DNA of 64,000 bases, from the IMG/VR virus record IMGVR_UViG_3300030103_005378, one strand, 5' to 3'. Below, piece after piece: positions 7,691-47,188 of the stretch. Within the stretch, counting starts at the first letter, position 1. Each line of letters opens with the position of its first letter. Position numbers and translations under genes: made by a program. The notes beneath the pieces are model-generated. The model was not told where the DNA came from. It searched no databases and worked only from the letters and a program-made list of their open reading frames with translations. The stretch is from an uncultured virus (IMG/VR IMGVR_UViG_3300030103_005378). Its lineage: Duplodnaviria; Heunggongvirae; Uroviricota; Caudoviricetes.

Positions 7691-8713
7691 ATGAAACGAT
7701 TTTTCCCAATATTAATTTTAGTAGCTGCTTTAAGTTTAGCAACAGTAGCGGCATATTATAGTGTTTTTGGTATTAGTAAGTTATTTGCATCACAAGCAAC
7801 AGCAGTTATTATAATGGCTGGCATACTTGAAGCATCTAAACTGATTACTGCTTCATATTTAGAAAGATTCTGGAAGACTATCCATTGGCTTAAAAAAACA
7901 TACCTTATTACAGCTTTAATTGCATTGATGGCTATAACCTCACTTGGAATTTACGGATTTTTAGTTTCTGCATATCAAGAAACATCCTATAAAATGCAAG
8001 CAGTAGATAAACAAGTTGAAGTTCAAGTAAAAAAACGAGATAGATATAAACAACAAATAAAAAACATATCAAAAGAACAACAAGATATAAATACTCAAAT
8101 TATTCAATTAAGTGAAAGTTTAGGTAATAATGTTATTCAATATACTAATAGTGAAGGGCAACTTATAACTACTCAATCATCTTCAACTCGTAGAATTATA
8201 CAACAACAATTAGATTCTCAAACTGCTAGAAGAGATAGTATAGCTTTAAAACAAGATGCTTTAAATGATAGTGTAACCCAACTTGATTTAAATATATTAG
8301 ACCTAGAAACTAACTCAGATGTTGCTGCTGAAATTGGACCTTTAAAATATGTTGCTAATATTACAGGAAAAGATACTGACCAAGTAGTAAATTGGTTTAT
8401 ATTAGTTTTTATATTTGTTTTTGATCCCTTAGCTGTTATGTTACTTATTTCTGCAAATAATTTATTTTTAAAAAATAAACCTAAAGTTAACTTATATAAA
8501 GAAAAAAAAAGAACATTAGTTAAAAAACAACCAACCCCTAAAATCATTTTACCTTCATCTCCCCCTCTAATTTCAAAAGAAAAACAACAATATTTAGATG
8601 AAATCCAAAAAATCCAAAAACAAGGAGCATCTAGTAAAAAATCAGGGATTGCTATACAAAATTTACAACAAAAAATAAAAGAAATAGACGAAGATAACAC
8701 TAAAACTTATTAA
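7691..8713 (+). CDS. Membrane protein with three N-terminal TM helices, long coiled coil and a further TM
   Basis: Hydropathy pattern, Q/K-rich heptads, EIGPLKY and FDPLA motifs. Confidence 0.65.
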   Translation: MKRFFPILILVAALSLATVAAYYSVFGISKLFASQATAVIIMAGILEASKLITASYLERFWKTIHWLKKTYLITALIALMAITSLGIYGFLVSAYQETSYKMQAVDKQVEVQVKKRDRYKQQIKNISKEQQDINTQIIQLSESLGNNVIQYTNSEGQLITTQSSSTRRIIQQQLDSQTARRDSIALKQDALNDSVTQLDLNILDLETNSDVAAEIGPLKYVANITGKDTDQVVNWFILVFIFVFDPLAVMLLISANNLFLKNKPKVNLYKEKKRTLVKKQPTPKIILPSSPPLISKEKQQYLDEIQKIQKQGASSKKSGIAIQNLQQKIKEIDEDNTKTY

Positions 8714-8754
8714 GGTTACGTGTTTTTTTAAAGGTTATTAATTATATTTAGGTT

Positions 8755-9549
8755 ATGAAAAAAGTAAAAATATCTCACGAAGTACCATTTTGTTTATTAA
8801 GTAAAAGTCTTGAATTTAATGACTATGATTATTGTTTACCTCATTTATTAGATCAAAATGAAGAGTATAGAACATTTTTTAATAATGTTAAAAGTATAGG
8901 TAGATATGTTGTAATGGATAATTCACTACATGAATTAGGAGAAGCATATAATACAGATCGTTTACTACATTGGATTAAAGAAATTAAACCTGATGAATTT
9001 ATAGTACCTGATGTTTGGGAAGATTATAGCGAATCAGTTAGAAATGCTAAAATATGGTCTCAAATTGAATTACCTGAAGGAGTTACTAAGGTTGCAGTAG
9101 TACAAGCTAAAACACAACATTATGCAGCGTTATGTACTCAAATGTATAAAGATTTAGGATATAAAAAAATAGCATATTCATACGGTGCTTCATATTATAA
9201 TGATGTTTGCCCCCACCCAAATAAAGATTTTGGTAAAGCAATTGGTAGATATATGGTTATAAACAATTTAATAAAAGATGGAATATTATCCCCAACAGAT
9301 AGAGTACATTTATTAGGCACTGCTTCCCCAATTGAATTTGGATTATATAAAAACATGAAATGTATTGAATCAATAGATACATCAAACCCAGTAATGGCGG
9401 GCATTGAACAAAAAATGTATTTTGATTTAGGTTTACCTCATAAACCAGAGGCAAATATGAATAATTTTCAAGATATAGAAGAAAAGGATGCTAATTTAGA
9501 GTTTATAGAGTATAATGTTAAAAAGTTTCGTGAAATAAACGGATTATAG
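8755..9549 (+). CDS. TGT-fold DpdA-like 7-deazaguanine transglycosylase candidate
   Basis: VMDNS, IVPDV, VAVVQ, VHLLG, SIDTSNP motifs resemble the TGT/DpdA barrel; queCDE nearby. Confidence 0.6.
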   Translation: MKKVKISHEVPFCLLSKSLEFNDYDYCLPHLLDQNEEYRTFFNNVKSIGRYVVMDNSLHELGEAYNTDRLLHWIKEIKPDEFIVPDVWEDYSESVRNAKIWSQIELPEGVTKVAVVQAKTQHYAALCTQMYKDLGYKKIAYSYGASYYNDVCPHPNKDFGKAIGRYMVINNLIKDGILSPTDRVHLLGTASPIEFGLYKNMKCIESIDTSNPVMAGIEQKMYFDLGLPHKPEANMNNFQDIEEKDANLEFIEYNVKKFREINGL

Positions 9550-9550
9550 C

Positions 9551-9580
9551 TTGGAGATTACAAGTTTTTTTCTTATATTA
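9551..9580 (+). promoter_or_regulatory. Bacteroidota-type promoter (TTG-N20-TATATT) upstream of the cassette array
   Basis: Same fixed spacing at 2361, 7655, 15253, 20149, 28933, 32616, 33808, 37081, 42035, 45365, 48254. Confidence 0.65.
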
Positions 9581-9596
9581 CTACAAATTAAAGGTT

Positions 9597-10103
9597 ATGT
9601 TATACAATACGTCTGATGAAAAAACTGTAAAACAAAAAATAAAACAGTTACAACCCTTAAATTATAATCAATTCTTTTGGTGGAGACGATATACAACAAA
9701 AACCCCACCATTACCAAAAAAATCAACATTTTTAGATCGTATTAAAAACGGTGAATATGAATTTTCACATTATTACTGGCAGTGGAAATTAACTGAGATA
9801 GAACTTAATGAAGTATTTAAATCTTATGGTAATGATCATCAAAGATTAATTGAATCAAACCAAGTCGATTTAGCTCGAAGAAAACGATTAATTGAAGATT
9901 TTGAAAAAGATGAAACTGCTAAATTAGAAGCACTACAAAAAGGTTTTTTACGAGAATTTGTTATGACAAAAGATGAGTATGAAGAGCATATTATAAATTT
10001 TGATGGTACAACAGAAGAATTTTATATGTATTGTTTAAAAACATTTGATCGCTCTGGTAGATCAATAGAAAGAAGAGGTAGACCACCAAAACAAAGAAGA
10101 TGA
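9597..10103 (+). CDS. Hypothetical protein with C-terminal AT-hook-like RRGRPPK
   Basis: 168-aa ORF after promoter and AAGGTTATG start. Confidence 0.7.
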   Translation: MLYNTSDEKTVKQKIKQLQPLNYNQFFWWRRYTTKTPPLPKKSTFLDRIKNGEYEFSHYYWQWKLTEIELNEVFKSYGNDHQRLIESNQVDLARRKRLIEDFEKDETAKLEALQKGFLREFVMTKDEYEEHIINFDGTTEEFYMYCLKTFDRSGRSIERRGRPPKQRR

Positions 10104-10216
10104 GACACGAAGATTACGTTAGAGATATGAACTGGGCTTTATCAAAAGGAATTACTATTGGTATTTTTATAGGAATTGTCATAAGTATTTTATTATATTC
10201 AATAACTAAATTATAA
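10100..10216 (+). CDS. Cassette ORF, 38 aa, single TM
   Basis: MRHEELRRDMNWALSKGITIGIFIGIVISILLYSITKL; starts and stops in junction repeats. Confidence 0.65.
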   Translation: MRHEDYVRDMNWALSKGITIGIFIGIVISILLYSITKL

Positions 10217-10228
10217 ACTAAAACAAAG

Positions 10229-10474
10229 ATGAGTAACAAAACAATAGCAATTATAAACTTCAATCAATATGATGGTAAGTATAATACTAAGTCTTATATG
10301 TATTTTGAAACTAAACTACATGCTGAAAGATACTTGATGGGAAACGGTTATCAGACCGATGATATTTTTGGATGGAAAAAGGATTACCTTTATTCAGCTA
10401 AAATCCATATGGAAACATTACATCTAGGTGATGGTGAGCATATTATTGATACTAAACAAAAACAAAGAAGATGA
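10229..10474 (+). CDS. Cassette ORF, 81 aa hypothetical
   Basis: Bounded by junction repeats. Confidence 0.7.
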   Translation: MSNKTIAIINFNQYDGKYNTKSYMYFETKLHAERYLMGNGYQTDDIFGWKKDYLYSAKIHMETLHLGDGEHIIDTKQKQRR

Positions 10475-10677
10475 GAAGTAGAGAAGAAATATATGAAAAA
10501 TTAATAGAAATGAATAAACATAAAGATGAATTATCTCATTTCTTAAATAATCCACCAAATGGGGGTTTGTGGGGCATATCTGAAAAACATCATCAATTCG
10601 AAACACAATGTAGTATGGTTGATTTACTGGAATGGGTGTTGAATATTAAAAACCAAAACAAAGATGAGAAGAATTGA
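10471..10677 (+). CDS. Cassette ORF, 68 aa hypothetical
   Basis: Bounded by junction repeats; ends NQNKDEKN. Confidence 0.7.
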   Translation: MRSREEIYEKLIEMNKHKDELSHFLNNPPNGGLWGISEKHHQFETQCSMVDLLEWVLNIKNQNKDEKN

Positions 10678-10792
10678 TATTGGATTAATACTTAAATTGG
10701 TTTTTATTATTACCATTATATGGTTCTTGTTTTACATTGGAAAAGACAAAAATGTGAATTACAAAGGCAAAGGTTATTATGAAACTAGATAA
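10664..10792 (+). CDS. Cassette ORF, 42 aa, single TM
   Basis: MRRIDIGLILKLVFIITIIWFLFYIGKDKNVNYKGKGYYETR. Confidence 0.65.
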   Translation: MRRIDIGLILKLVFIITIIWFLFYIGKDKNVNYKGKGYYETR

Positions 10793-10804
10793 ACCCAAAC
10801 AAAG

Positions 10805-10966
10805 ATGAGTAAAATAACAGTACATACACCAGAAGATTTTAGTTCGTATACTAAAGAAATGAAAGAAACTATAATAAAGTCCATTAAAGAAGAGTATGGC
10901 GGTAAGGTTAAAATATTACCCTATATCCCTAAATCTATCAGAACACTTAAACCAAAACAAAGATGA
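10805..10966 (+). CDS. Cassette ORF, 53 aa
   Basis: MSKITVHTPED...TLKPKQR. Confidence 0.65.
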   Translation: MSKITVHTPEDFSSYTKEMKETIIKSIKEEYGGKVKILPYIPKSIRTLKPKQR

Positions 10967-11115
10967 AAGAAGTAAATTACAAATGGGTTCATAAAAAGGG
11001 ATGGGTGGTTGAATCTGAAGATGAAACACTAAAAATGGTGGTGGAAGAAACACTAAAAGAAGTTGATAGAACAATAAATTTTCAAGAATACTTAAACCAA
11101 AACAAAGATGAGTAA
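10963..11115 (+). CDS. Cassette ORF, 50 aa
   Basis: MKEVNYKWVHKKGW...YLNQNKDE. Confidence 0.65.
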   Translation: MKEVNYKWVHKKGWVVESEDETLKMVVEETLKEVDRTINFQEYLNQNKDE

Positions 11116-11365
11116 AGAGATTAACATACAGTTAGAAACCATTGAGGTTAAGGGTGAGGTGATACCATTACAACATGAATGGAAAGTTTGTGAAAATAAT
11201 AAAGAATGGTACGGTAGATTACCCAGAAAGAAGAAGAAACAATTAAAGAAACGAATGGGTGAAGAATCTTTTGTTAGTTGGTGGAATGGACTTGATGTAT
11301 ATTATCATCCTGATGTTGAAGAAGAATTAACAAAGTTACTTATAAATAAACCAAAACAAAGATGA
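11108..11365 (+). CDS. Cassette ORF, 85 aa
   Basis: MSK start, KPKQR end. Confidence 0.7.
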   Translation: MSKEINIQLETIEVKGEVIPLQHEWKVCENNKEWYGRLPRKKKKQLKKRMGEESFVSWWNGLDVYYHPDVEEELTKLLINKPKQR

Positions 11366-11559
11366 GTAAAGAAGAAGATAAGAAATTAGTCAGTAAGTTA
11401 CTAAAGGAAGCTAATGAAATTCATAAGAACAGAAAACCTAAGGCTAACTTTTTAGTACTTACTGATAAACAGATTCAAGATATGGCAGACACACAAGGGA
11501 TAACCTTTGATGAGATGTCAAGAGATATTGAAGAATACTTAAAACCAAAACAAAGATGA
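11362..11559 (+). CDS. Cassette ORF, 65 aa
   Basis: MSK start, KPKQR end. Confidence 0.7.
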   Translation: MSKEEDKKLVSKLLKEANEIHKNRKPKANFLVLTDKQIQDMADTQGITFDEMSRDIEEYLKPKQR

Positions 11560-11852
11560 GTAAACAATATAATGTAAAGTATGAAGTAGGGCAAGATGTC
11601 TATGTATTAAGAGATAAAAAGATAAGTAAAAATAGGATAGACAAGATTAGAGTTACCGAACAACAACCTTATACTAAGGGTAATTTAGATGGAACTTTTA
11701 CTGAAATGTCGGGTATTGAAATAGATTATCTTATAGAAACAAAAAGAGATTTCATACATCCACATACAAAAAGTACCCAAAGTTCATACGATTGGTATAG
11801 TCAAGAAGATGTCTTTACTAATAAGGATGAATTGATTGCACAAATTGTATAA
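11556..11852 (+). CDS. Cassette ORF, 98 aa
   Basis: MSK start; stop is the first TAA of the next repeat. Confidence 0.7.
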   Translation: MSKQYNVKYEVGQDVYVLRDKKISKNRIDKIRVTEQQPYTKGNLDGTFTEMSGIEIDYLIETKRDFIHPHTKSTQSSYDWYSQEDVFTNKDELIAQIV

Positions 11853-11864
11853 ACCAAAACAAAA

Positions 11865-12035
11865 ATGAGTAAAGAAATTTCAAGAAAAGAATTTGAAGAA
11901 TTAGTTATTAACTATACTAAAAATATATGTAATGACATTATTAAAAATGGGTTTAATGGTATTGAAGGATGGGTAAGAGAACTTATATCATCTGAGTTTA
12001 TTATTAAAAAAATAAAAAACATAGAAGATGAGTAA
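11865..12035 (+). CDS. Cassette ORF, 56 aa
   Basis: MSKEISRKEFEE...KNIEDE. Confidence 0.65.
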   Translation: MSKEISRKEFEELVINYTKNICNDIIKNGFNGIEGWVRELISSEFIIKKIKNIEDE

Positions 12036-12120
12036 AGAAGAAAATACAGGTTGTTTTGAAGCATGGTTAGGTATAGTAATCTTTTCCATAATAATGATAT
12101 TAATAATGATGATAGAATGA
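12028..12120 (+). CDS. Cassette ORF, 30 aa, single TM
   Basis: MSKEENTGCFEAWLGIVIFSIIMILIMMIE; ATGA overlap with next ORF. Confidence 0.55.
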   Translation: MSKEENTGCFEAWLGIVIFSIIMILIMMIE

Positions 12121-12302
12121 CTGAAAAAGATTTAAATAAAAAAATTGAATTTGAAAAATTCCGTGAAGAATGGAAAGAAAATTGGTATGATTATTATCGT
12201 TTATTAGACATAGATTTTGAAGCATTTATGTTAATGAAAGGATTAACAATAGAAGAATTTAAACATTTAAATAACGAAGAATTATGGAAAAACATGTTGT
12301 AG
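12117..12302 (+). CDS. Hypothetical protein
   Basis: MTEKDLNKKIEFEK..., coupled by ATGA overlap. Confidence 0.6.
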   Translation: MTEKDLNKKIEFEKFREEWKENWYDYYRLLDIDFEAFMLMKGLTIEEFKHLNNEELWKNML

Positions 12303-13150
12303 TTTCCCTATCTGGAGGAATGGATTCCAGTACATTGTTGTTACGTTGTCTTAAAGAATATGACACGGTAACAGCTATTTCATTTGATTATGGACAAAAA
12401 CATAGAGTTGAGTTAGAACGCGCTCAATCATTAGTAGATTATATTAATAATGAGGTAATGATTAATATTGGAGTACATGGGGATTCACATCCTGGTGTTA
12501 AATATAGAGTAATTAAGCTAGATGGTTTAGTTGATTTACTTGATTCTGCTTTAGTGGATGGTGGAGATGAAGTACCCGAAGGTCATTATGCTGAAGATAA
12601 TATGAAAGCAACTGTTGTACCTAATAGAAATAAAATATTTGCCTCTATTACACAAGCAGTAGCATTATCTAGAGCAAACCAAACAGGTGAAGGTTGTGAT
12701 ATTGCACTTGGTATCCATGCAGGTGATCATGCTATTTACCCAGATTGCAGACAAGAGTTTAGAGATGCAGACGATGCAGCTTTTAGAATAGGCAATTGGG
12801 ATGCTGATAAAGTAGGTTACTTTACACCTTATCTTGAAGGTGATAAATTTACTATCTTACAAGATGGAGAAAAACTATGTAAATATTTAGGTTTTGATTT
12901 TGATGAAGTTTATTCTCGTACAAATACAAGTTACAAACCAATCCAAATTATATCTACTTCAGGTGATAATTGGTTTTCAGATTACAAATCAGCTAGTTCA
13001 GTTGAACGAGTAGAAGCATTTATTAAATTGGGAAGACCTGATCCTGTAAGATATGCTGATGAAACAGGCCCTGTAAAATGGGAAACAGCAAGAATATATG
13101 TTGAACAAGTACTTTCAGAGTATGAAAAAGAACAATTAAATATAAAATAA
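12284..13150 (+). CDS. queC: 7-cyano-7-deazaguanine synthase
   Basis: SLSGGMDS, FDYGQKH, TVVPNRN, YPDCR motifs. Confidence 0.93.
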   Translation: MEKHVVVSLSGGMDSSTLLLRCLKEYDTVTAISFDYGQKHRVELERAQSLVDYINNEVMINIGVHGDSHPGVKYRVIKLDGLVDLLDSALVDGGDEVPEGHYAEDNMKATVVPNRNKIFASITQAVALSRANQTGEGCDIALGIHAGDHAIYPDCRQEFRDADDAAFRIGNWDADKVGYFTPYLEGDKFTILQDGEKLCKYLGFDFDEVYSRTNTSYKPIQIISTSGDNWFSDYKSASSVERVEAFIKLGRPDPVRYADETGPVKWETARIYVEQVLSEYEKEQLNIK

Positions 13151-13611
13151 TGAAACATCAATCAACTAAAATATTTGACGGATTTAGTACAGTATTCCGT
13201 CAATGGAGAGCAAAAGAAACACATTGTAGTTATTTACATGGGTATGGAGTATCATTTAAAGTAACTTTTGAAGGGTTACTTGACCATAGAAATTGGGTTT
13301 GGGACTTTGGAGGAATGAAACGAGCTAAAACCCAAATAGATGGTATGTCCCCTAAAGACTGGATGGATTACATGTTTGATCACACATTAATTGCTGCAAA
13401 CGACGACCCCGAATTGGATTCATTTAGAATGATGGATGCACAAAATTTAATCCAATTAAGAGTAATAGATGCTACTGGTGCAGAAAAATTTGCTGAGTAT
13501 ATCTACAATAAACTTAATATGTTTGTTGAGGAAGAAACAGATGGACGAGTAAGAGTAGTACAAGTTGAATTTATGGAACATGGAAAAAATACAGCAATTT
13601 ATGGAGAATAA
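13150..13611 (+). CDS. queD: 6-carboxy-5,6,7,8-tetrahydropterin synthase
   Basis: HCSYLHGY, WVWDFG, FDHT, GAEKFA motifs. Confidence 0.9.
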   Translation: MKHQSTKIFDGFSTVFRQWRAKETHCSYLHGYGVSFKVTFEGLLDHRNWVWDFGGMKRAKTQIDGMSPKDWMDYMFDHTLIAANDDPELDSFRMMDAQNLIQLRVIDATGAEKFAEYIYNKLNMFVEEETDGRVRVVQVEFMEHGKNTAIYGE

Positions 13612-17178: not shown

Positions 17179-18954
17179 ATGTACAAAAAGTGTTTTGCTG
17201 AATATAAAAGTTATAATAAATATTTAATCCACCTATGGACTGATGAGGGCTATTCAACTAGTGAATGGTCCTCTCCTGCTTATGTTGAATGTAGTGAAAG
17301 TGAAGCAAAGTACAAAGGTCTAAATGGTGAACCATTAAAAAAGATATATAAATGGAAAAGAGACACACCAGGTCTTCATTTTCATGATATGTCACCTTAT
17401 CAAAATTTCTTAATTGATAAGTATGGAATTAATGATGAACCTTCAACTACTCATAAAGAGATATTTTTTGATATTGAGATTGAAATGGGAGATGCTTTAA
17501 CTCCTGAATATATTCAATCTGCACCTAAAAAGGTTACTTCAATTGCTTGGTATTTTAAACAAGAAGATGAATGGAAAATCATTATTCTTGATCCAAAACA
17601 ACAAATCCAACCAACAGTAAATGGGAATAAAGAAATAATCCCTGTTTACAATGAAGAAGTATTACTATCTAAATTCCTCACTTACATGAGAGAACTAGAC
17701 CCAGATATCCTTGTAGGTTATAATAGTGATTATTTTGATATTCCTTACTTGTACTATAGAATTAAAAATGTACTAGGTGAAGAAATGGTTGAGTATTTAT
17801 CTCCTATTTTAAAAGTAAAAGAAAAACGTAGTTTTAAAACAAATGAGATATATGATTCAAACCAACCAATAGAGATAGCGGGGGTTGAGTCACTTGATTA
17901 TATGCGTTTACATAAAAAATATAGTTGGGAAGATGAACCAAGTTGGAAGTTAGATGCATTAGGTGAAAAGTATGCTGGTTTAAATAAAATAGAATATAAT
18001 GGTTCTTTAGATAGACTATTTGAAGAAGATATTGAAACATTTATAGAATATAACTTTCGTGATGTTGAAATTTTAGTTGAATTAGACAAAAAATTAGAAT
18101 ATCTAGCATTAACTAAAAACTTATCCCATAAAGGAAAACACAACTATGGAGAAGTATACCACAATACAGTTACACAAGATGGAGCCATTTCAGCTTATCT
18201 ATTATCTGAAGGTATAATACCACCTAGAAAAGAACCAAACCCTAAAAAGAAAAAAGGATATGCAGGTGGTTATCTGTTTTGTCCTAAAGCAGGTGTATAC
18301 AAATATATGTTTGATGAAGATTTAACTTCACTATATCCTTGTATTATTATGTCTTTAAATATAGGTAAAGAAACAATGGTAGGTAGAATTATAAGTCAAA
18401 CTTTACCTGAAAACCTAAAATATAGACCTTATATGGTTACTGATAAGGAGACAAAATCAACATATTATTCCCCTTCTAGAAATAACTATTTAGGTTTAAA
18501 TGATTTAAAGAAAAAAGACCCACAAGAAGAACTTACTATTGAAAATGCTAAAGGTAAACGCACTCAAATTGAAGTAGGTAATTTAATTAACTTAATTGAG
18601 GATATGGAAATGGCTGTTTCTGCAAATGGTACATTTTTTAGAACAGATAAACAATCAGTACTTTCAATTATTTTGAATAAATGGTTTGATGAAAGGGTAA
18701 AATATAAAAATGCTATGAAAAAAGCATATAAATCAGGTAATTCTGAATTAGGTGCTTCGTTTCATTTAAAGCAATATACAATGAAAATTTTGCTGAATAG
18801 TTTGTATGGTGCAACTGCCTTACCTACATTTAGATACGCGATGAATGAAGCAATATTGAGCGAAGCAATTACATTAAGTGGATGGAGAATCATTCAGGAA
18901 TCAGCTTTAGCAGCAAATAGACATATTAATAAACTAATGAAAACAGAAATATAA
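17179..18954 (+). CDS. Family B DNA polymerase, N-terminal part (3'-5' exonuclease, motifs A and B)
   Basis: FFDIEIE, GYNSDYFD, YNFRDV, DLTSLYP, KILLNSLYG; ends before motif C. Confidence 0.92.
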   Translation: MYKKCFAEYKSYNKYLIHLWTDEGYSTSEWSSPAYVECSESEAKYKGLNGEPLKKIYKWKRDTPGLHFHDMSPYQNFLIDKYGINDEPSTTHKEIFFDIEIEMGDALTPEYIQSAPKKVTSIAWYFKQEDEWKIIILDPKQQIQPTVNGNKEIIPVYNEEVLLSKFLTYMRELDPDILVGYNSDYFDIPYLYYRIKNVLGEEMVEYLSPILKVKEKRSFKTNEIYDSNQPIEIAGVESLDYMRLHKKYSWEDEPSWKLDALGEKYAGLNKIEYNGSLDRLFEEDIETFIEYNFRDVEILVELDKKLEYLALTKNLSHKGKHNYGEVYHNTVTQDGAISAYLLSEGIIPPRKEPNPKKKKGYAGGYLFCPKAGVYKYMFDEDLTSLYPCIIMSLNIGKETMVGRIISQTLPENLKYRPYMVTDKETKSTYYSPSRNNYLGLNDLKKKDPQEELTIENAKGKRTQIEVGNLINLIEDMEMAVSANGTFFRTDKQSVLSIILNKWFDERVKYKNAMKKAYKSGNSELGASFHLKQYTMKILLNSLYGATALPTFRYAMNEAILSEAITLSGWRIIQESALAANRHINKLMKTEI

Positions 18955-19217
18955 TGGCACTTTCCCCACAATCAATAAGAAAAAATGTTCAAGTTAAATT
19001 TGATAATGTTATAGTAGATAAACAAACTATAATAAAAAGAAGTGAATCTTGGACAGAAAAACAAGAAATATTATTTAAAAAATTCCTTAAACAAGGAGGC
19101 AAATGTAAAATACAAGGTGTTAAAATAGAAGTAGTTCCACCTCATGAAGTGCTTACCTCAAAAGGAGAAAAACCAAGTGGTAAAATGGTAGCACCTGGAA
19201 TTGATCAAAGATTTTAA
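18954..19217 (+). CDS. 87-aa hypothetical protein between the two polymerase halves
   Basis: TAATG overlap with upstream half; stop immediately before downstream half. Confidence 0.65.
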   Translation: MALSPQSIRKNVQVKFDNVIVDKQTIIKRSESWTEKQEILFKKFLKQGGKCKIQGVKIEVVPPHEVLTSKGEKPSGKMVAPGIDQRF

Positions 19218-19218
19218 A

Positions 19219-20151
19219 ATGAAGCATATAGAAGACGTACCGTGGATGATTTGTGATGAAGGTGATGTAAACTACTGTGCTTATGTAGACACAGATAGCA
19301 ACTACTTTCATGCTGAACCTATCCTAAAACACTTCTATCCTGATTTTGATAAAATGTCTGATGAAGATAAGGATGAAAAACTTGAAAAGGTAGCCCTTAA
19401 ATATCAAGATATTATCACAGATTCTTATAATACACTAGCTAAAGAATGTTTTAATGTCCCTACTCATAGACTTGAAATGAAGACTGAATGTGTAATCAGA
19501 TCAGCTTATTTTAGAAAAACTAGAAGATATGCTCAATGGATTACTAAACAAGAAGGTATAGTAAAAGAATCACTTGATATAAAAGGTCTTGAGTTTAAAA
19601 AAGCAAATTTTCCACCTGTATTAGGTAAGTTTTTTAAAGATATTTTAATTGATGTTTTGAAGGGTTCTACACAAACTGATGTAGATCAAAAAGTTAAAGA
19701 ATTCAAAAACCAAATCTTAAATGGAGATATCCCTTTAGTTAAATTAGGCAACCCAACAGGAGTAAAAACATTAAACAAGTATATGGGTCGTAAACCTAAA
19801 GCAGGTGAAATGTTTACCCAAATGATTAAAGGTGCCCCTGTAAGTGCTAAAGCTGCTGCTGTATATAACGATTTAATTAGATTTTGGAAATTAAACACTA
19901 AACATTCTTATATAGCACAAGGTGATAAAATTAAATTCATTTACCTAAAACCAAACCCATACCAGATAGATACATTAGGGTTTTTAGATTTTGATTTACC
20001 ACCTAAAATAGAGGAGTTTATGGAAAAATATGCTGATAGACAAAAAATATTTGATGCTATATTACTAAATAAGTTAGAGGGTTTTTATGATGATTTAGGT
20101 TGGTCATTAAATTTAAATCCATATAAAGACAAGTTTTTCAATTTTAGTTAG
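19219..20151 (+). CDS. Family B DNA polymerase, C-terminal part (motif C, thumb)
   Basis: YVDTDSNY, LEMKTE, RRYA, IKGLE, GDKIKFIY. Confidence 0.92.
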   Translation: MKHIEDVPWMICDEGDVNYCAYVDTDSNYFHAEPILKHFYPDFDKMSDEDKDEKLEKVALKYQDIITDSYNTLAKECFNVPTHRLEMKTECVIRSAYFRKTRRYAQWITKQEGIVKESLDIKGLEFKKANFPPVLGKFFKDILIDVLKGSTQTDVDQKVKEFKNQILNGDIPLVKLGNPTGVKTLNKYMGRKPKAGEMFTQMIKGAPVSAKAAAVYNDLIRFWKLNTKHSYIAQGDKIKFIYLKPNPYQIDTLGFLDFDLPPKIEEFMEKYADRQKIFDAILLNKLEGFYDDLGWSLNLNPYKDKFFNFS

Positions 20152-26838: not shown

Positions 26839-27324
26839 ATGAAACACTCCGAATTAAAACAACTCATCAAAGAGGAAATACGTAGCGCATTAAATGAAGC
26901 CACCTACAAAAATTTTTCAGGTGATAAAATTGTAAAATACGTTGAACGAAATAAACCTGATGCTGAAGATATGGAAGTTATTAAACGATACTTCCCAAAC
27001 GCAGTTAGTAGTATGAAAGAAGCTACATTGAACTTGATGACACCTGAAAAAACAACATCTCCAATGTTTTCACATATTCAATATAACCAATTTGAAGGGA
27101 ACTATCCACAAGACCCTCACCCCGATAAAGAAGGTGAAGGAAAAGAATTTGGTGTATATCAAATACAATATTACAATAACAAACCTCCTAGATTCAACCC
27201 AAAAGTAACTGAACTTTCATTTACCTCTCAACAACCACATTACAAAATGGGAGTAATTCTTGTAATGACAGATGAATATTTAAAAGATTTAAAACAACTG
27301 AAGATTACAAAAAGCGTATCATGA
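26839..27324 (+). CDS. Leader-array protein, leader B
   Basis: MKHSELKQLIKEEIRSALNE. Confidence 0.75.
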   Translation: MKHSELKQLIKEEIRSALNEATYKNFSGDKIVKYVERNKPDAEDMEVIKRYFPNAVSSMKEATLNLMTPEKTTSPMFSHIQYNQFEGNYPQDPHPDKEGEGKEFGVYQIQYYNNKPPRFNPKVTELSFTSQQPHYKMGVILVMTDEYLKDLKQLKITKSVS

Positions 27325-27653
27325 AACACTCACAACTAAAAAAACTTATTAAAGAAGAAATATCTAATGCTTCAACAATTGATTTAGCAGGTAAAATTAG
27401 AACTTTAGTATATTCAACTCCCTTTTGGAAGTTTAGAGATGCTATAAATATGGTTCTAAAATCACATTATAATAAAAAAGTACAATTAGCTGAAAATAAG
27501 CTATTAAATGAATCGCTTGAGCTTACTCCTATAGAGAGAAGAAAATTAATTTATTTTCTAGAAATGAAGGTTGAAGAAATGCAAAATAAGGGAGATAATT
27601 TCTTTTCTGATGAGATAGAAATTTTTAACAGCATTTTAAATAAAATAAGATGA
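27321..27653 (+). CDS. Leader-array protein, leader B plus internal leader A remnant
   Basis: MKHSQLKKLIKEEI...QLAENKLLNE. Confidence 0.75.
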   Translation: MKHSQLKKLIKEEISNASTIDLAGKIRTLVYSTPFWKFRDAINMVLKSHYNKKVQLAENKLLNESLELTPIERRKLIYFLEMKVEEMQNKGDNFFSDEIEIFNSILNKIR

Positions 27654-28261
27654 AACACTCACAACTAAAAAAACTTATTAAAGAGGAAATACGTAGCGTA
27701 TTAAATGAAGGTAAACATTTATCTAAGATGTTGGGTGTAGCAAATTTAAAATTTGGTGTTGATGGTAACTTGTATTTTATTATAGGTAGTGATTCATATG
27801 GTGGAGACGCATACCTTAAAATTAGTAAAAAAGATTTACCTAAATTCTTTAAAATGGTAAGAGATGCAGAAGCTCAAGTTAATTCTCTTCCAATTGATGA
27901 AGTTCGTACTGATAGTAAAGTATGGAACGATGCTTCTGCTTTAGCTAAAGAACTAGAAGAAAAGGGTATAGCAATAAAAGCATACGTTGAAGGAACTTCA
28001 AGTGGGGCATTAGGTCATACACAACTTTATGTAGCTACTGATGGTATGACACGTGATGAATTTAAACAAGCTATAGAACAAAATTATAAAAAAACACCAT
28101 TGTCAACATCACTTTCATCTGAATATTATTATTCACCTAAACATAAATTATATTTCTTTTTCTACCGTGAGGGTGGAAATCGTGGATTCCATTCAGGTTT
28201 AGATAAAATGGTTGATTATGACTATAAGTTACTTTTAAAGAGAAGACTTCCAAAAAGATAA
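27650..28261 (+). CDS. Leader-array protein, leader B
   Basis: MKHSQLKKLIKEEIRSVLNE. Confidence 0.75.
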   Translation: MKHSQLKKLIKEEIRSVLNEGKHLSKMLGVANLKFGVDGNLYFIIGSDSYGGDAYLKISKKDLPKFFKMVRDAEAQVNSLPIDEVRTDSKVWNDASALAKELEEKGIAIKAYVEGTSSGALGHTQLYVATDGMTRDEFKQAIEQNYKKTPLSTSLSSEYYYSPKHKLYFFFYREGGNRGFHSGLDKMVDYDYKLLLKRRLPKR

Positions 28262-28263
28262 AA

Positions 28264-28929
28264 ATGAAACATTCCCAACTAAAACAACTTATCAAAGAGG
28301 AAATATCTAAGGTATTAGAACTTCGTACAATAGATTATAAACCAAAAGATGATTTAGTCCACTTGTATTTAATGACCTACAGTGATAAAGTAGGGGAACC
28401 ATATTTTGAAAAAAAATATAAAAAATTTAGAAATGACGTTGAATCCCTTCTTCAATCTTTTGACGCTGCAGTAGAAAATGATCATGGGATTAGTGATAAA
28501 AATCTTAAAATACTAGTTAATAGAAAAGATAAAATTAAAGTTAAAAATATTTTAACTAAACTTTCTAATAGGTATGGATTTGAAAGTGAATTAGAAATAG
28601 ATACTTTAGAGGAAATACATAGCGCAATTAATGAAAATAAACTTGGTACTCCTGAAGAATTAAAAAGTTTTCTATATTCAAAACAATCAAAAATAGTTAA
28701 GGATATAAAAGATTATATAAAATTTAAAAAAGTTGATATTGCTACATATAGAGGTTTTACTGAAGAAGACATTAAACAATGGATAAGAGATGATGCTGGT
28801 ACATACACCCCAAGAGAATTTCTTATAACAACTGATGATATCCTTAGAAGGGGAATCGATGAATATATGTTTCATCCTGTTTATGATGAATTTGTAGAAA
28901 CAACTTATAATCAATATTTTAAAAAATAA
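28264..28929 (+). CDS. Leader-array protein, leader B plus internal leader B remnant
   Basis: MKHSQLKQLIKEEISKVLE...EEIHSAINE. Confidence 0.75.
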   Translation: MKHSQLKQLIKEEISKVLELRTIDYKPKDDLVHLYLMTYSDKVGEPYFEKKYKKFRNDVESLLQSFDAAVENDHGISDKNLKILVNRKDKIKVKNILTKLSNRYGFESELEIDTLEEIHSAINENKLGTPEELKSFLYSKQSKIVKDIKDYIKFKKVDIATYRGFTEEDIKQWIRDDAGTYTPREFLITTDDILRRGIDEYMFHPVYDEFVETTYNQYFKK

Positions 28930-43350: not shown

Positions 43351-43830
43351 ATGAAAAAGATATTACTACTAATTTTATTAATACCTGGATTATTATACTC
43401 ACAAAACAAATCCTTTTATATAGAAGCTAATGCTGGTGTAAGTACTACAGTAAACTATGAAGATGAAGTTATAGACATTGTAGATATGAGTGTAACCTAT
43501 GAAAATAATGATAAATTTATGGGTTCATTATCGATAGGTACTAATATACCTATGGGGGACTATAGTTTGATAGATATACAACTAGGTTTATCTTATCCTT
43601 ATATTATAACTGGAAAAGTGGGTGTTGGTTCTTATTATGGTAAAAAGGAACAAATAGCTATTATATTAGGTATTAGACCTTATCCATTGATGGGCTACGC
43701 TCAATTAAATATTAGACCTAACACTGGTTTACACTTTGTATTTTGTGGTGAAATAGGTACGGGGGGAGATATTTCTTTAGGTACTAGAAGTATATTTAAT
43801 GTAGGTTTAAGACTCCCAATTAAAAAATAA
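43351..43830 (+). CDS. Signal-peptide protein, possible small outer-membrane beta-barrel
   Basis: MKKILLLILLIPGLLYSQ signal; alternating beta pattern. Confidence 0.5.
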   Translation: MKKILLLILLIPGLLYSQNKSFYIEANAGVSTTVNYEDEVIDIVDMSVTYENNDKFMGSLSIGTNIPMGDYSLIDIQLGLSYPYIITGKVGVGSYYGKKEQIAIILGIRPYPLMGYAQLNIRPNTGLHFVFCGEIGTGGDISLGTRSIFNVGLRLPIKK

Positions 43831-45960: not shown

Positions 45961-46044
45961 GCTCGAGTGGTGGAATTGGTAGACACGCCGGACTTAAAAT
46001 CCTGTGGGCATTAGCCCGTGAGGGTTCAAATCCCTCCTCGAGTA
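45961..46044 (+). tRNA. tRNA-Leu(TAA)
   Basis: GCTCGAG/CTCGAGT acceptor, CT-TAA-AA loop, long variable arm, GTTCAAATC; no encoded CCA. Confidence 0.93.
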
Positions 46045-46053
46045 CAAACATTT

Positions 46054-46138
46054 GAAACATCTGTTCTCCCTCCTTTTACTCTCAGATGTTTCTTTCCCCC
46101 TAATAAACCTAAAGATATTTTTGGGATTTTATTAGGGG
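46054..46138 (+). ncRNA. Candidate two-hairpin small RNA within tRNA cluster
   Basis: GAAACATCTG/CAGATGTTTC and CCCCTAATAAA/TTTATTAGGGG stems. Confidence 0.4.
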
Positions 46139-46142
46139 ACAT

Positions 46143-46214
46143 GGCCCATTCGTCTAGTGGTTAGGACGCTAGGTTTTCATCCTAGAAACAGGAGTTCGAT
46201 TCTCCTATGGGCTA
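46143..46214 (+). tRNA. tRNA-Glu(TTC)
   Basis: CTAGG-TT-TTC-AT-CCTAG arm, GTTCGATTC. Confidence 0.93.
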
Positions 46215-46218
46215 CAAA

Positions 46219-46292
46219 GGACTGGTAGTTCAGTTGGTTAGAATACCTGCCTGTCACGCAGGGGGTCGCGAGTTCGAGTCCCGTCCAGTCCG
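46219..46292 (+). tRNA. tRNA-Asp(GTC)
   Basis: CCTGC-CT-GTC-AC-GCAGG arm; GGACTGG/CCAGTCC acceptor. Confidence 0.93.
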
Positions 46293-46296
46293 CTTT

Positions 46297-46369
46297 TGTC
46301 CTATGGTGTAATTGGCAACACGTCTGGTTTTGGTCCAGAAGAGTCGAGGTTCGAGCCCTTGTGGGACAA
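46297..46369 (+). tRNA. tRNA-Gln(TTG)
   Basis: TCTGG-TT-TTG-GT-CCAGA arm; TGTCCTA/TGGGACA acceptor. Confidence 0.92.
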
Positions 46370-46737
46370 CAATTAATAAAAATAAAAATTATGAAAATAA
46401 AAGTAGAAATAACCTCATTAGAAACACTTATTTCTAAATTAGAAAAGAAGTATAATGATGAAAACAGTAAACCATTAAGTGATACTATTACCCACCTTAA
46501 ATCAGCTCTCCGAAGTATAAAAAAAGTTTAAATATTTATAACTATGAAACGATTTAAAAAACACTCAATTCACATACTACAAATTTTATTTATGTTAGTA
46601 ATGTGTATATTATACCCATTTTGGTGGGCTAATGGATACTTAGACACAACCTATTTAAAAATAGCTACTGGAATTGCTGCTTATGGTGGGTTTATAGCTT
46701 CTTTAGTTTGGTATCTCCAATATAGAAAAGATAACTA

Positions 46738-47121
46738 GTGGAATATATTGGATTAGTTTGCTTTATTTTATCAGGAGTAAGTGAAGGTGTAATGGATACC
46801 CTCCAATTTCACTTTTATAATTCTGTTTTTTACTCTAAAAACCCACAATTATTTTGGAATCCAGAGATTTCATGGAAAAATAAATATAAAAATGGAGACC
46901 CAAAACAAGGCCCTAAATTTCTCTTTTCAACTACATTGCTAGTAGGTTTAACAGATGCTTGGCATTTTTTCAAACTATTAAGAAACTTGTTTATATTTAT
47001 GGGTGTACTATTTTTAGCACTTCCTATTAATAGTTTTTGGATTTGCATTTTATGGGTTGCCTTAGCAAGAATTGTATTTGGTCTCTCATTTACCATTTCC
47101 TATAGAAAAATGGGGGTATAG
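46738..47121 (+). CDS. Membrane protein
   Basis: 127 aa with TM segments; stop codon lies inside tRNA-Ala. Confidence 0.65.
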   Translation: MEYIGLVCFILSGVSEGVMDTLQFHFYNSVFYSKNPQLFWNPEISWKNKYKNGDPKQGPKFLFSTTLLVGLTDAWHFFKLLRNLFIFMGVLFLALPINSFWICILWVALARIVFGLSFTISYRKMGV

Positions 47122-47188
47122 CTCAGCTGGCTAGAGCGCCTGCCTTGCACGCAGGAGGTCGTGGGTTCGACTCCCTCTACCTCCACCA
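47112..47188 (+). tRNA. tRNA-Ala(TGC) with encoded CCA
   Basis: CCTGC-CT-TGC-AC-GCAGG arm; GGGGGTA/TACCTCC-A-CCA. Confidence 0.93.

What the first reader, a model, noticed from the sequence alone, without database searches (positions are those of the whole stretch)
10084..12120. Mini-gene cassette array joined by a repeat that stops all three frames and restarts translation
Seen: about 11 unrelated 30-98 aa ORFs are each separated by TAAACCAAAACAAAGATGAGTAAA. The repeat reads TAA in one frame, KPKQR-TGA in the second and NQNKDE-TAA in the third, and supplies an A-rich ATG (mostly MSK). All three exits are used: first TAA at 10216, 10792, 11852; TGA at 10103, 10474, 10966, 11365, 11559; third frame at 11115, 12035 and variant 10677. 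Spacing is irregular (about 130-310 bp) and the spacers are coding. One promoter (9551) heads the array, which sits between the DpdA-like gene and queC. Inference: an integron-like plug-in system with no integrase, where any DNA between two repeats is expressed and terminated, and cassettes are gained, lost or shuffled by recombination at the repeat.
Basis: partly seen in the sequence, partly recalled or inferred. Interest (0 to 1): 0.88.

Follow-up and report, generated by a model that had tools for sequence, protein, structure and literature searches.

The report
Shuffled phage mini-genes, one universal joint
A large uncultured marine phage strings eleven unrelated tiny genes together with one 24-letter joint that ends the previous gene in any reading frame and starts the next, and related and unrelated phages have swapped, gained and lost these genes exactly at that joint.

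Summary
Eleven unrelated 30-98 aa ORFs (10100-12120) are joined by TAAACCAAAACAAAGATGAGTAAA or close variants: 8 copies with up to 3 mismatches against 0 expected. All three stop exits are used.

The motif is not this phage's ordinary start context. Ten of 11 copies in the 156-kb record lie in the array. It is missing from cultured phages and nearly missing from 185,579 cellular genomes.

The same motif forms arrays in many uncultured viral contigs.

- **Same locus, close relatives:** they carry quite different cassette sets, and homology breaks inside the first and last motif copies.
- **Distant phage:** one with only about 31% PolB identity shares six or seven cassettes at 96-98% DNA identity, in another order. 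Each match is bounded by the motif.
- **No integrase** lies near the arrays.

Best reading: a Shine-Dalgarno-free stop/restart translation joint whose identical sequence also serves as the crossover point for homologous recombination. Expression, restart and the recombination route are inferred. It is a translational counterpart of T4 PeSL cassettes and of the old boundary-sequence model, so a new variant of a known kind.

The parts
9597..10103 (+). g168, the 168-aa gene that heads the chain. Its last codons (..PPKQRR) are the first joint.
   Evidence: It has no Pfam or PHROG family. It is 97% identical in G007 and G008. In more distant relatives its homologue lies upstream of the DpdA-like gene.
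10082..10108 (+). Joint J1, a variant: ACCAAAACAAAG + AAG + ATGA.
   Evidence: It is the left breakpoint of homology with G007 (window 10100) and G008 (window 10095).
10100..10216 (+). Cassette c38, a 38-aa protein with one hydrophobic helix.
   Evidence: It matches G002 374892-375047 at 96% nucleotide identity.
10214..10237 (+). Joint J2.
   Evidence: 2 mismatches.
10229..10474 (+). Cassette c81.
   Evidence: It matches G002 91251-91509 at 98% nucleotide identity.
10453..10479 (+). Joint J3, a variant with an AAG insertion.
10471..10677 (+). Cassette c68.
   Evidence: It is 90% identical to G003 and 85% to G004.
10649..10672 (+). Joint J4. It lacks the T of the first TAA.
   Evidence: 3 mismatches.
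10664..10792 (+). Cassette c42, a small membrane-like protein.
   Evidence: It is 97% identical to G002 and 94% to G003. It is followed by three different cassettes in three contigs.
10790..10813 (+). Joint J5.
   Evidence: 1 mismatch.
10805..10966 (+). Cassette c53.
   Evidence: No homologue was found in the loci fetched.
10948..10971 (+). Joint J6.
   Evidence: 3 mismatches, all after the ATGA.
10963..11115 (+). Cassette c50.
   Evidence: It matches G002 92000-92171 at 98%.
11093..11116 (+). Joint J7, an exact copy.
11108..11365 (+). Cassette c85.
   Evidence: It matches G002 90370-90676 at 96%.
11347..11370 (+). Joint J8, an exact copy.
11362..11559 (+). Cassette c65.
   Evidence: It has homologues at 61-65% aa identity in L033, L066 and L079.
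11541..11564 (+). Joint J9.
   Evidence: 1 mismatch.
11556..11852 (+). Cassette c98.
   Evidence: It matches phrog_25586, of unknown function, at E 5e-5. G002 has two copies at 96-97%. The listing shows its 3' end followed by four different cassettes.
11850..11873 (+). Joint J10.
   Evidence: 1 mismatch.
11865..12035 (+). Cassette c56.
   Evidence: No homologue was found in the loci fetched.
12010..12036 (+). Joint J11, degenerate here. Contigs of other samples show a canonical copy before c30.
   Evidence: One search shows loose ends at 12025 reading (T)AAACCAAAACA. It is the right breakpoint of homology with G008 (12017) and G007 (12025).
12028..12120 (+). Cassette c30, a small membrane-like protein and the last cassette.
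   Evidence: It is 93% identical (aa) in G008 and 90-91% (nucleotide) in G002.
12117..12302 (+). g61, a backbone gene and not a cassette. It is joined by a plain ATGA overlap without the motif.
   Evidence: It is conserved before queC in most of the 80 relatives.
8755..9549 (+). Left backbone gene, called 'DpdA-like' on a lead only.
   Evidence: It was used to fetch 80 syntenic loci.
12284..13150 (+). queC, the right backbone gene.
   Evidence: phrog_1550, E 1e-41.

Best explanation
The 24-nt sequence T-TAAACCAAAACAAAG-ATGA-GTAAA is a portable translation joint.

**In the mRNA.** It stops an upstream reading frame in any of the three frames: TAA at -15, TGA in ATGA, TAA at +5. It also offers an unstructured, A-rich start site without a Shine-Dalgarno sequence, of the type that Bacteroidia ribosomes use. 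Each mini-gene in a polycistronic message is therefore ended and the next one started within 15 nt. This is termination-reinitiation or direct initiation.

**In the DNA.** Every cassette is flanked by the same 24 nt in the same orientation. These copies can therefore serve as short homologies at which general recombination swaps, deletes or inserts whole cassettes. The enzymes could be the phage's own RecA-like proteins and nucleases, or those of the host, acting during co-infection. No frame is broken and no integrase is needed.

**What is shown.** The joint, its three-frame use, its restriction to arrays, its spread over many uncultured marine phages, and cassette turnover and exchange with end points in the joint.

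**What is inferred.** Translation restart, transcription as one unit, the Bacteroidota host, and homologous recombination as the route.
For: **The joint is selected at the nucleotide level.**
- In 293 unique copies from viral contigs, information content is confined to -16..+8, and A at +3 (ATGA) occurs in 97%.
- Of 304 copies, TGA at +1 is present in 297, a stop at -15 in 231 and a stop at +5 in 172. All three are present in 132.
- Upstream ORFs of 25 aa or more leave by +1 in 58 copies, by -15 in 54 and by +5 in 68.
- Stops are kept in frames that the upstream ORF does not use: -15 in 47/58 and 53/68, +5 in 32/54 and 29/58.

**It fits a Bacteroidia translation start.**
- The motif has A at -3, -6, -12 and -13, the positive determinants measured in Flavobacterium johnsoniae (PMC6847099, section 15 read).
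- Predicted unpaired probability over -16..+8 is 0.71, against 0.55 for the region.
- A window protein carries a CHU_C type IX secretion domain, and queC is 80% identical to that of a Flavobacterium phage.
- No conserved promoter box lies upstream of the motif, and no terminator-like site lies at a joint.

**Cassettes turn over at one locus.**
- Of 80 loci with the DpdA-like gene, 68 also hold queC. None of the 68 has a copy with up to 3 mismatches between the two genes.
- G001, G007 and G008 have respectively 11, about 7 and 2 cassettes there, sharing only c30. Homology ends at window 10095-10100 and 12017-12025, inside joints J1 and J11.

**Cassettes are exchanged between distant phages.**
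- G001 against G002 as whole records gives 34 HSPs covering 7.4% of G001, and PolB identity is about 31-32%.
- Of 9 HSPs of at least 95% identity and 70 nt, 7 are single cassettes running from joint to joint. The other two are a tRNA and a repeat-rich 404-nt piece.
- G007 cassettes also have homologues in G002 at 87% and 94% aa.

**Cassettes assort independently.**
- 19 of 19 upstream families seen at two or more unique joints are followed by different downstream families.
- 18 of 20 downstream families are preceded by different upstream families.
- Of 171 ends of 88 inter-contig HSPs, 97 lie within 20 nt of a joint ATG, against 5.9% for random places. 78 of the 88 HSPs hold no internal joint.

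**Independent samples.** Contigs of three other marine studies run on into unlike sequence at the joints. Two join c38 to c98 and c68 to c65 through a joint.

**Enzymes.** No integrase or transposase was found near the arrays. The phage encodes two RecA-like proteins, a 5'-3' exonuclease and a PD-(D/E)XK nuclease.
Against: - Nothing here shows translation, restart or a single transcript. The RNA-library contigs were contigs only, and most matched nothing but the motif.
- The host is unknown. No cultured phage has the motif, so the link to Bacteroidia initiation rests on one domain and one gene.
- The other genes of the same phage prefer a different start context, with G at -3 in 31%. The motif is therefore not simply the best start for this host.
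- The invariant C at -5, -10 and -11 and G at -1 are not explained by the published A determinants. They hint at a sequence-specific reader.
- Mosaicism does not need the motif. G001 against G008 has 55 unaligned blocks of 150 nt or more, and only one is the array. A 486-nt gene without the motif is 90% identical to G002. Intervals between queC, queD and queE vary among relatives without the motif.
- 74 of 171 HSP ends are not within 20 nt of a recognised joint.
- The crossover cannot be placed inside 24 identical bases, so homologous recombination and selection for intact genes cannot be told apart at a single joint.
- All comparison sequences are metagenome assemblies.
Confidence: 0.64

Rival explanations
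1. The motif is above all the operator of a sequence-specific trans-acting factor that controls all cassettes together. Candidates are a translational repressor of the T4 RegA type, an RNA-binding protein or small RNA, or an endoribonuclease site. Its use as a crossover point would be a by-product.
For: C at -5, -10 and -11 and G at -1 are conserved at 87-96%, which the need for unpaired adenines does not explain. The motif is absent from cellular genomes and is not the phage's general start context. That is what a class-specific regulatory site looks like. The T4 RegA comparison is recalled and was not read here.
Against: No Pfam RegA (PF01818) match was found in G001-G005, but the search had no positive control, so it is inconclusive. 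No antisense copy of the core exists in the 156-kb record: 0 forward against 11 reverse hits. No protein is conserved next to arrays across contigs; the best family is a DNA ligase in 4 contig groups. The phages that carry the motif are very distant from one another, with PolB of 31% identity and both PolA and PolB types. A shared phage-encoded factor would therefore have to travel as well.
Confidence: 0.13
2. The breaks lie at gene borders only because illegitimate recombination happens everywhere and selection keeps products with intact genes. On this view the motif plays no part in recombination and is shared only because it is a good start site.
For: Mosaic blocks without the motif are common. 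There are 55 unaligned blocks between G001 and G008. A motif-free gene is shared with G002 at 90%. Insertions lie between the que genes in relatives. An earlier finding of this scan (e1-6094492) reported equal shuffling at unchained gene starts, and part of that finding later fell.
Against: Seven of the 9 most similar segments (95% or more) between two phages that share only 7.4% of their DNA are cassettes flanked by the joint on both sides. The unit shared is one cassette in 78 of 88 HSPs. No adjacency is conserved in 19 of 19 families. Exact 16-24-nt identity is kept across lineages with 31% PolB identity. Under this rival that identity would need convergent selection on every base.
Confidence: 0.1
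3. A dedicated, motif-specific recombination or homing machinery moves the cassettes, perhaps through circular intermediates. That would be a true integron-like or PeSL-mini-circle-like system.
For: Turnover is very fast relative to sequence change. Six cassettes at 96-98% identity have all changed neighbours. All copies in an array point the same way, which would allow excision as circles. PeSL mini-circles give a precedent (PMC2839356, abstract read).
Against: No integrase, transposase or conserved neighbouring enzyme was found among 73 flanking proteins of arrays or 34 window proteins. The one NUMOD/HNH-like endonuclease occurs in a single contig. The motif has no inverted repeat or hairpin. 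No circle junction was seen, but only contigs could be laid.
Confidence: 0.07
4. Each joint is a compact promoter for a phage-specific RNA polymerase or sigma factor, so that each cassette is its own transcription unit, nearly leaderless.
For: A conserved block of about 24 nt ending at the start of the gene resembles single-block phage promoters in size. This comparison is recalled.
Against: The conserved block includes the ATG and the following codons, and it contains stops for all three incoming frames. No terminators lie between cassettes. Upstream ORFs overlap the block. A 621-nt contig from an RNA library runs across a cassette into unlike flanks (record 13), which is a weak hint of read-through.
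Confidence: 0.04
5. The different orders are artefacts of metagenome assembly through a short repeat.
For: All relatives are assembled contigs, and the repeat recurs every 130-300 nt.
Against: The repeat (24 nt) is shorter than usual final k-mers and than reads. Each adjacency in a contig must therefore exist in reads. This argument is reasoned, not tested. One array was assembled with identical spacing in two records, L033 and L066. Four runs hold 97% of the window's array words. Alternative adjacencies recur in contigs of three other studies.
Confidence: 0.02

Closest known systems
PeSL (promoter-early stem-loop) cassettes in hyperplastic regions of T4-type phages (Arbiol et al. 2010, PMC2839356; Comeau et al. 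2014, PMC4122927; abstracts read)
   Same: A short regulatory sequence repeats between small non-essential ORFan genes. Insertions, deletions and replacements between related phages end in the repeat. It is proposed to act through homologous recombination without a site-specific recombinase.
   Different: A PeSL is a transcriptional unit border: a sigma-70-like promoter plus a terminator hairpin. This joint has neither. It is a translational border of 24 nt that includes the start codon and stops in three frames. It is shared almost unchanged by phages with only about 31% PolB identity. Mini-circles were not seen or testable here.
Start-Associated Sequences (SAS) of cluster K mycobacteriophages (Pope et al. 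2011, PMC3203893; passages of section 15 read)
   Same: A short asymmetric conserved sequence lies directly before start codons of non-structural genes of different families. It is nearly always in one orientation and is absent from the host genome. A role in translation initiation is suspected but unproven.
   Different: SAS contains the Shine-Dalgarno core AGGAG, lies 3-7 bp before the start and is scattered over half the genome. This motif has no SD, includes the ATG, supplies stops in three frames and sits in one tight array. SAS was not linked to cassette exchange.
Short conserved boundary sequences ('linker' model) of phage mosaicism, as summarised in PMC3029335 (two passages read)
   Same: Homologous recombination at short sequences shared at module borders joins otherwise unrelated genes.
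   Different: That paper notes that such sequences cannot be found at most mosaic borders. Here the boundary sequence is explicit, identical and present at every border of the array, and it also has a translational function.
Integrons (definition recalled, not read here)
   Same: They hold an array of promoterless, single-gene cassettes in one orientation. Cassettes are gained, lost and reordered at a recurring site and drawn from a pool shared across genomes.
   Different: No IntI integrase was found and there is no folded attC site. No Pc promoter could be shown. The recurring site here is a translation joint, not a recombinase substrate.
SD-independent, adenine-dependent translation initiation of Bacteroidia (Baez et al. 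2019, PMC6847099; abstract and section 15 read)
   Same: The motif has A at -3, -6, -12 and -13 and a weakly structured start region.
   Different: The published signal is a loose preference. This is a fixed 24-mer with invariant C and G positions, used by one class of phage genes only.

Membership tests
Integron | An adjacent IntI tyrosine recombinase gene | tested here: not met
   No integrase family was found among 34 window proteins or 73 representative proteins within about 4 kb of arrays in other contigs.
Integron | attC sites: imperfect inverted repeats that fold as hairpins (definition recalled) | tested here: not met
   The conserved block is 24 nt with no symmetry. It is predicted to be mostly unpaired, 0.71.
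Integron | One promoter (Pc) drives promoterless cassettes | tested here: inconclusive
   The sigma-70-type scan found 33 sites against 30.9 expected. The site at 9552 scores 9 of 12. No RNA 5' ends are available.
Integron | Cassettes gained, lost and reordered at the recurring site | tested here: met
PeSL cassettes of T4-type phages | The repeat contains a sigma-70-like early promoter | tested here: not met
   No conserved positions lie upstream of -16 in 293 copies. The promoter scan was at chance level.
PeSL cassettes of T4-type phages | The repeat contains a stem-loop terminator | tested here: not met
   One terminator-like site was found in 8500-13500, inside c81 and not at a joint. The joints are predicted unpaired.
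PeSL cassettes of T4-type phages | The repeat lies between small ORFan genes of a variable region | tested here: met
   Ten of 11 cassettes have no PHROG family. Of the 100 longest cassette-family representatives, 92 have no Pfam family.
PeSL cassettes of T4-type phages | Indels and replacements between relatives end in the repeat | tested here: met
PeSL cassettes of T4-type phages | Excised mini-circles | not testable with these tools
   Only assembled contigs could be laid. No circle junction with adequate flanks was seen.
Start-Associated Sequences (cluster K) | A short asymmetric sequence directly before start codons, in one orientation | tested here: met
Start-Associated Sequences (cluster K) | Contains the Shine-Dalgarno core | tested here: not met
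   No GGAG or AGGA occurs in the motif.
Start-Associated Sequences (cluster K) | Absent from the host genome | tested here: inconclusive
   The host is unknown. The 23-mer occurs in only 3 contigs of 185,579 species genomes. All three contigs have low GC and two carry further copies, so they look like phage contigs.
Boundary-sequence (linker) recombination | An identical short sequence on both sides of the exchanged module in both partners | tested here: met
   Seven cassette HSPs between G001 and G002 run from joint to joint.
Boundary-sequence (linker) recombination | The exchange is carried out by general homologous recombination | not testable with these tools
   Only the enzymes are seen: RecA-like proteins, a 5'-3' exonuclease and a PD-(D/E)XK nuclease.
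Bacteroidia SD-less start site | Adenines at -3, -6, -12 and -13 and low structure | tested here: met
   Motif positions compared with PMC6847099 section 15. Unpaired probability.
Bacteroidia SD-less start site | The host is a member of Bacteroidota | tested here: inconclusive
   A CHU_C type IX secretion domain, E 4.8e-14, and queC 80% identical to Flavobacterium phage immuto. No cultured relative carries the motif.

The most novel reading that the evidence does not exclude
The joint is more than a passive homology. It would be the 'socket' of an integrase-free gene-cassette exchange network among unrelated marine (probably Bacteroidota) phages. Cassettes would behave as semi-autonomous elements that carry their own universal stop/start sequence. 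They would move as units, possibly as circles or with the help of a motif-reading factor, and would be expressible at once in any frame context. This would be a translational counterpart of the integron, shared across phage families.
Probability: 0.2. Interest if true: 0.85.

Novelty: new variant of a known kind. Interest (0 to 1): 0.7.

Why it matters
How phage genomes become mosaics is an old open question: recombination at short shared boundary sequences, or random breakage followed by selection. Such boundary sequences are usually not found at mosaic borders (PMC3029335).

Here the boundary sequence is explicit, 24 nt long and identical at hundreds of gene borders. It is shared by very distant uncultured phages, and nearly identical mini-genes lie between its copies in different orders. 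That makes the boundary-sequence model directly testable.

It also points to a compact, frame-independent stop/restart element for organisms that do not use Shine-Dalgarno sequences. Finally, it marks a large pool of fast-moving small phage genes, about 200 families in the sample fetched and 92 of the 100 longest without any known family. These are likely host-takeover or defence-related factors.

Tried and rejected
- **Own assembly.** It is not held, so the nearest record G001 was used instead.
- **Promoter and terminator scan.** It gave chance-level results. I only looked at the 47-nt gap 9550-9596 by eye and saw no TAnnTTTG.
- **Rfam.** It returned only a chance snoRNA match at E 0.24.
- **PHROGs and Pfam on cassettes.** Almost nothing was found.
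- **RegA family PF01818.** No hit, but no positive control either, so this says nothing.
- **QueC and g168 in G002-G006.** No hits. I used this only to show that the flanks differ. The tool warns that an empty answer proves little.
- **Conserved array-adjacent protein.** None was found.
- **Circle or back-joints in public runs.** Only contigs were available. The many joints in the RNA library X16 have sides under 30 nt and are motif-only matches. Two 'backward' joints had low depth. None is evidence. Parts of the stretch without cover in some runs are not interpreted.
- **Motif conservation against ORF divergence.** The test is partly circular because both members were chosen for having the motif, so I do not lean on it.
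- **Earlier notes of this scan.** Searches by sequence and by place found nothing.
- **Array as an outstanding hotspot between G001 and G008.** Rejected: it is one of 55 unaligned blocks.
- **Not used.** Structure prediction, complex prediction and the large protein searches. They would not have changed the reading.

Full report
**1. What is in the window**

Reading 9400-12600 and listing ORFs confirms a gap-free chain on the + strand. It starts with g168 (9597-10103). Eleven small ORFs follow: c38, c81, c68, c42, c53, c50, c85, c65, c98, c56 and c30 (10100-12120). Then come g61 (12117-12302) and queC (12284-13150).

The 24-mer TAAACCAAAACAAAGATGAGTAAA occurs 8 times with up to 3 mismatches, all on the + strand, against 0 in 100 shuffles. 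Three more joints are variants. Two have an AAG insertion before the ATG (ATG at 10100 and at 10471). One is degenerate (ATG at 12028).

The 8 cassettes that could be clustered belong to 8 different families. Three of the 11 (c38, c42, c30) are little more than one hydrophobic helix.

**2. It is not an ordinary start context, and it is not in cells**

The window's own assembly is not held. The nearest virus record, G001, is 156,273 bp and estimated 96% complete. In it, 10 of 11 hits of the 13-mer core (up to 1 mismatch) lie in the array.

Eighty-four other + strand ORFs of 80 aa or more in the window use another context, often ..AAAAGTT-ATG. The string AAAGTTATG occurs 16 times against 2.08 expected. 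The array joints score only at the 5th-44th percentile of that generic profile.

- The 23-mer occurs in 3 contigs of 185,579 species genomes. All three have 24-34% GC, one of them labelled Microbacteriaceae, and two carry further motif-like copies. They look like phage contigs binned with cells.
- Among 50,697 GenBank phage records the best matches are chance-level partial hits with E of 0.1 or more.
- The nearest named phage, Flavobacterium phage immuto (queC 80% identical), has no copy with up to 2 mismatches.
- The string is not in the searched literature: 0 papers.

**3. The motif is a family feature of uncultured marine phages**

By my count these come from 113 contigs. They merge into 69 groups when loci sharing a 50-mer are joined. 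Of these groups, 28 have 2 or more copies and 20 have 3 or more.

In five long contigs the copies cluster tightly:

| Record | Copies | Where |
|---|---|---|
| G002 | 21 | two regions |
| G003 | 11 | one main region |
| G004 | 24 | 23 in the first 5.5 kb |
| G005 | 12 | one main region |
| G006 | 19 | two divergent arrays |

The reversed-pattern control gave 0 in all five.

In 293 unique relaxed copies the information content is confined to -16..+8. A at +3 is present in 97%, although the search did not require it. Nothing is conserved further upstream.

Of 304 copies, 297 keep TGA at +1, 231 keep a stop at -15 and 172 keep a stop at +5. All three are present in 132. Upstream ORFs of 25 aa or more exit at +1 in 58 copies, at -15 in 54 and at +5 in 68. 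In a further 82 copies the upstream ORF is short or cut. The stops are also kept where the upstream ORF does not use them.

The ORFs that follow the motif have a median length of 58 aa.

**4. Cassettes are exchanged at the joint**

(a) Same locus, related phages. Eighty loci encode a relative of the left backbone gene at 55-95% aa identity. Sixty-eight of them also hold queC. In none of those 68 does a copy with up to 3 mismatches lie between the two genes. The usual order is backbone gene, g61, queC, queD, queE.

| Record | Backbone identity to the window | Cassettes at the locus | Where homology to the window breaks |
|---|---|---|---|
| G007 | 95% over window 9116-10100 | about 7 other cassettes after g168 | stops at 10100, resumes at 12025 |
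| G008 | 96% over window 8700-10095 | one 99-aa cassette and c30 | stops at 10095, resumes at 12017 |
| G009 | 87% | no g168; two small ORFs with a degenerate joint | not applicable |

Both breakpoints fall inside joints J1 and J11.

(b) Distant phages. G001 and G002 share only 7.4% of G001 in 34 HSPs. Their PolB proteins match at 31-32% over parts.

Nine HSPs reach 95% identity over 70 nt or more:
- Seven are single cassettes running from joint to joint: c38, c81, c42, c50, c85 and c98 twice.
- One is a tRNA.
- One is a repeat-rich 404-nt piece of a large ORF.

The order in G002 is c85-c98-c42-c81-x-c50, with a second array 285 kb away. The window order is c38-c81-c68-c42-c53-c50-c85-c65-c98-c56-c30. 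G003, G004 and G005 share c68, c42 and c65 at 77-94%. Two G007 cassettes recur in G002.

(c) Independent assortment.
- All 19 upstream families seen at 2 or more unique joints have different downstream partners.
- 18 of 20 downstream families have different upstream partners. Identical contexts had been merged before this count.
- 97 of 171 ends of 88 inter-contig HSPs lie within 20 nt of a joint ATG, against 5.9% for random places.
- 78 of the 88 HSPs contain no internal joint.

(d) Other samples. Twenty runs of 11 marine studies hold part of the stretch. In contigs of three non-source studies the loose ends fall at the joints (10216, 10229, 10474, 10947, 11346-11376, 11561-11565, 11869, 12025, 12118-12125). 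Two contigs join c38 to c98 and c68 to c65 through a joint. I laid these at 90% likeness, so they may come from relatives.

**5. What tempers this**

Mosaicism in this phage group does not need the motif.
- G001 and G008 align over only 63.8% at 85.7% identity, with 55 unaligned blocks of 150 nt or more. The array is one of them.
- A 159-aa gene without the motif (window 43351-43830) is 90% identical to G002.
- Spacings among the que genes vary in relatives.
- 74 of 171 HSP ends are not near a recognised joint.
- An earlier finding of this scan on another phage reported equal shuffling at unchained starts, and part of it later fell.

The well-supported claim is therefore narrower. The most recent and most far-reaching exchanges are of joint-flanked single cassettes. 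I do not claim that the joint is the only route.

**6. What the cassettes are**

They are ORFans. Ten of 11 have no PHROG. Of the 100 longest representatives of about 200 families, 92 have no Pfam family. The exceptions include thymidylate synthase and spore photoproduct lyase, so the joint also precedes some ordinary genes. Thirty-eight of 200 families have a membrane-like segment.

Diverged pairs give dN/dS of 0.2-0.9, pooled 0.50. The five nearly identical G001-G002 pairs show 0 synonymous and 11 non-synonymous changes, which is not significant by my own rough binomial estimate.

**7. How it most likely works**

*Translation.* The motif has A at -3, -6, -12 and -13, the determinants measured in F. 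johnsoniae (PMC6847099, section 15). It is predicted to be unpaired, 0.71 against 0.55. All three exits place the terminating ribosome within 15 nt of the next AUG. There is no conserved promoter box and no terminator at the joints. A Bacteroidota host is suggested by a CHU_C domain protein and the Flavobacterium-phage-like queC.

*Recombination.* No integrase or transposase lies near the arrays. The phage has two RecA-like proteins, a 5'-3' exonuclease and a PD-(D/E)XK nuclease.

Restart, single-transcript expression and the recombination route are all inferences. The invariant C and G positions are not explained by the adenine rule and leave room for a specific reader.

**8. Comparison with what is known, and novelty**

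The system works like PeSL cassettes and like the boundary-sequence model. It lacks the PeSL promoter and hairpin. It resembles SAS in position and in being foreign to cells, but it has no SD and forms arrays. It is not an integron.

Earlier notes of this scan describe similar stop-start linkers in other phages. These are leads and not evidence.

I rate it a new variant of a known kind: a Shine-Dalgarno-free, three-frame translational joint shared across deep phage lineages.

Noticed in passing
window, e.g. 4781, 35296, 37129, 37383, 47258, 55158, 59425: A second start-associated motif, AAAGTTATG, often extended to AAATAAAAGTTATG. It occurs 16 times against 2.08 expected, 14 of them on the + strand, directly at starts of non-array genes. 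It may mark another expression class.
   Followed up: partly
window 43351-43830: A 159-aa ORF without the joint is 90% identical in DNA to G002 on the opposite strand. It is 81% identical to a second G002 copy lying just before G002's first array (88784-89271). It looks like a mobile gene of another kind.
   Followed up: no
window 45961-47188: A cluster of five tRNA genes (Leu, Glu, Asp, Gln, Ala). tRNA-Glu and tRNA-Asp are 94-97% identical to copies in G002.
   Followed up: no
window 26839-28929: Four consecutive ORFs (161, 110, 203 and 221 aa) all begin ATGAAACA(C/T)TC, that is MKHS. They look like a tandem paralogue family (listing). None of those scanned has a Pfam family.
   Followed up: no
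window 17179-20151: The family B DNA polymerase appears split into two ORFs (17179-18954 and 19201-20151), both hitting PolB models, with an 87-aa ORF between them.
   Followed up: no
window 9597-10103 and loci L156-L228: g168 lies downstream of the DpdA-like gene in G001, G007 and G008. In most more distant relatives its homologue (32-71% aa) lies upstream of that gene.
   Followed up: no
L229 (G007), reverse-complement positions 2125-2358: In G007 the c30 sequence is fused in frame to the preceding cassette as a 77-aa ORF ending MILIMMIE. Where the in-frame TAA of the joint is missing, two cassettes can become one protein.
   Followed up: partly
window 49351-50124: A phage protein with a CHU_C type IX secretion sorting domain (E 4.8e-14). 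This points to a Bacteroidota host.
   Followed up: no
G001 record end (reverse-complement 155722-156125): A 404-nt segment rich in GCTGCTGATGCTGAA-type repeats, within a large ORF running off the record. It is 97% identical to G002 196307-196710, which suggests domain-level exchange in a probable structural gene.
   Followed up: partly
L193 position 10397: In one distant relative a motif-like copy (up to 3 mismatches) sits at the start of queE, outside any array.
   Followed up: no
window versus G001 record: The window and the nearest held record are not letter-identical. The first 200 bases of the window were not found in the record. The offset between the two differs by 82 nt between the array and position about 43.3 kb.
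   Followed up: no
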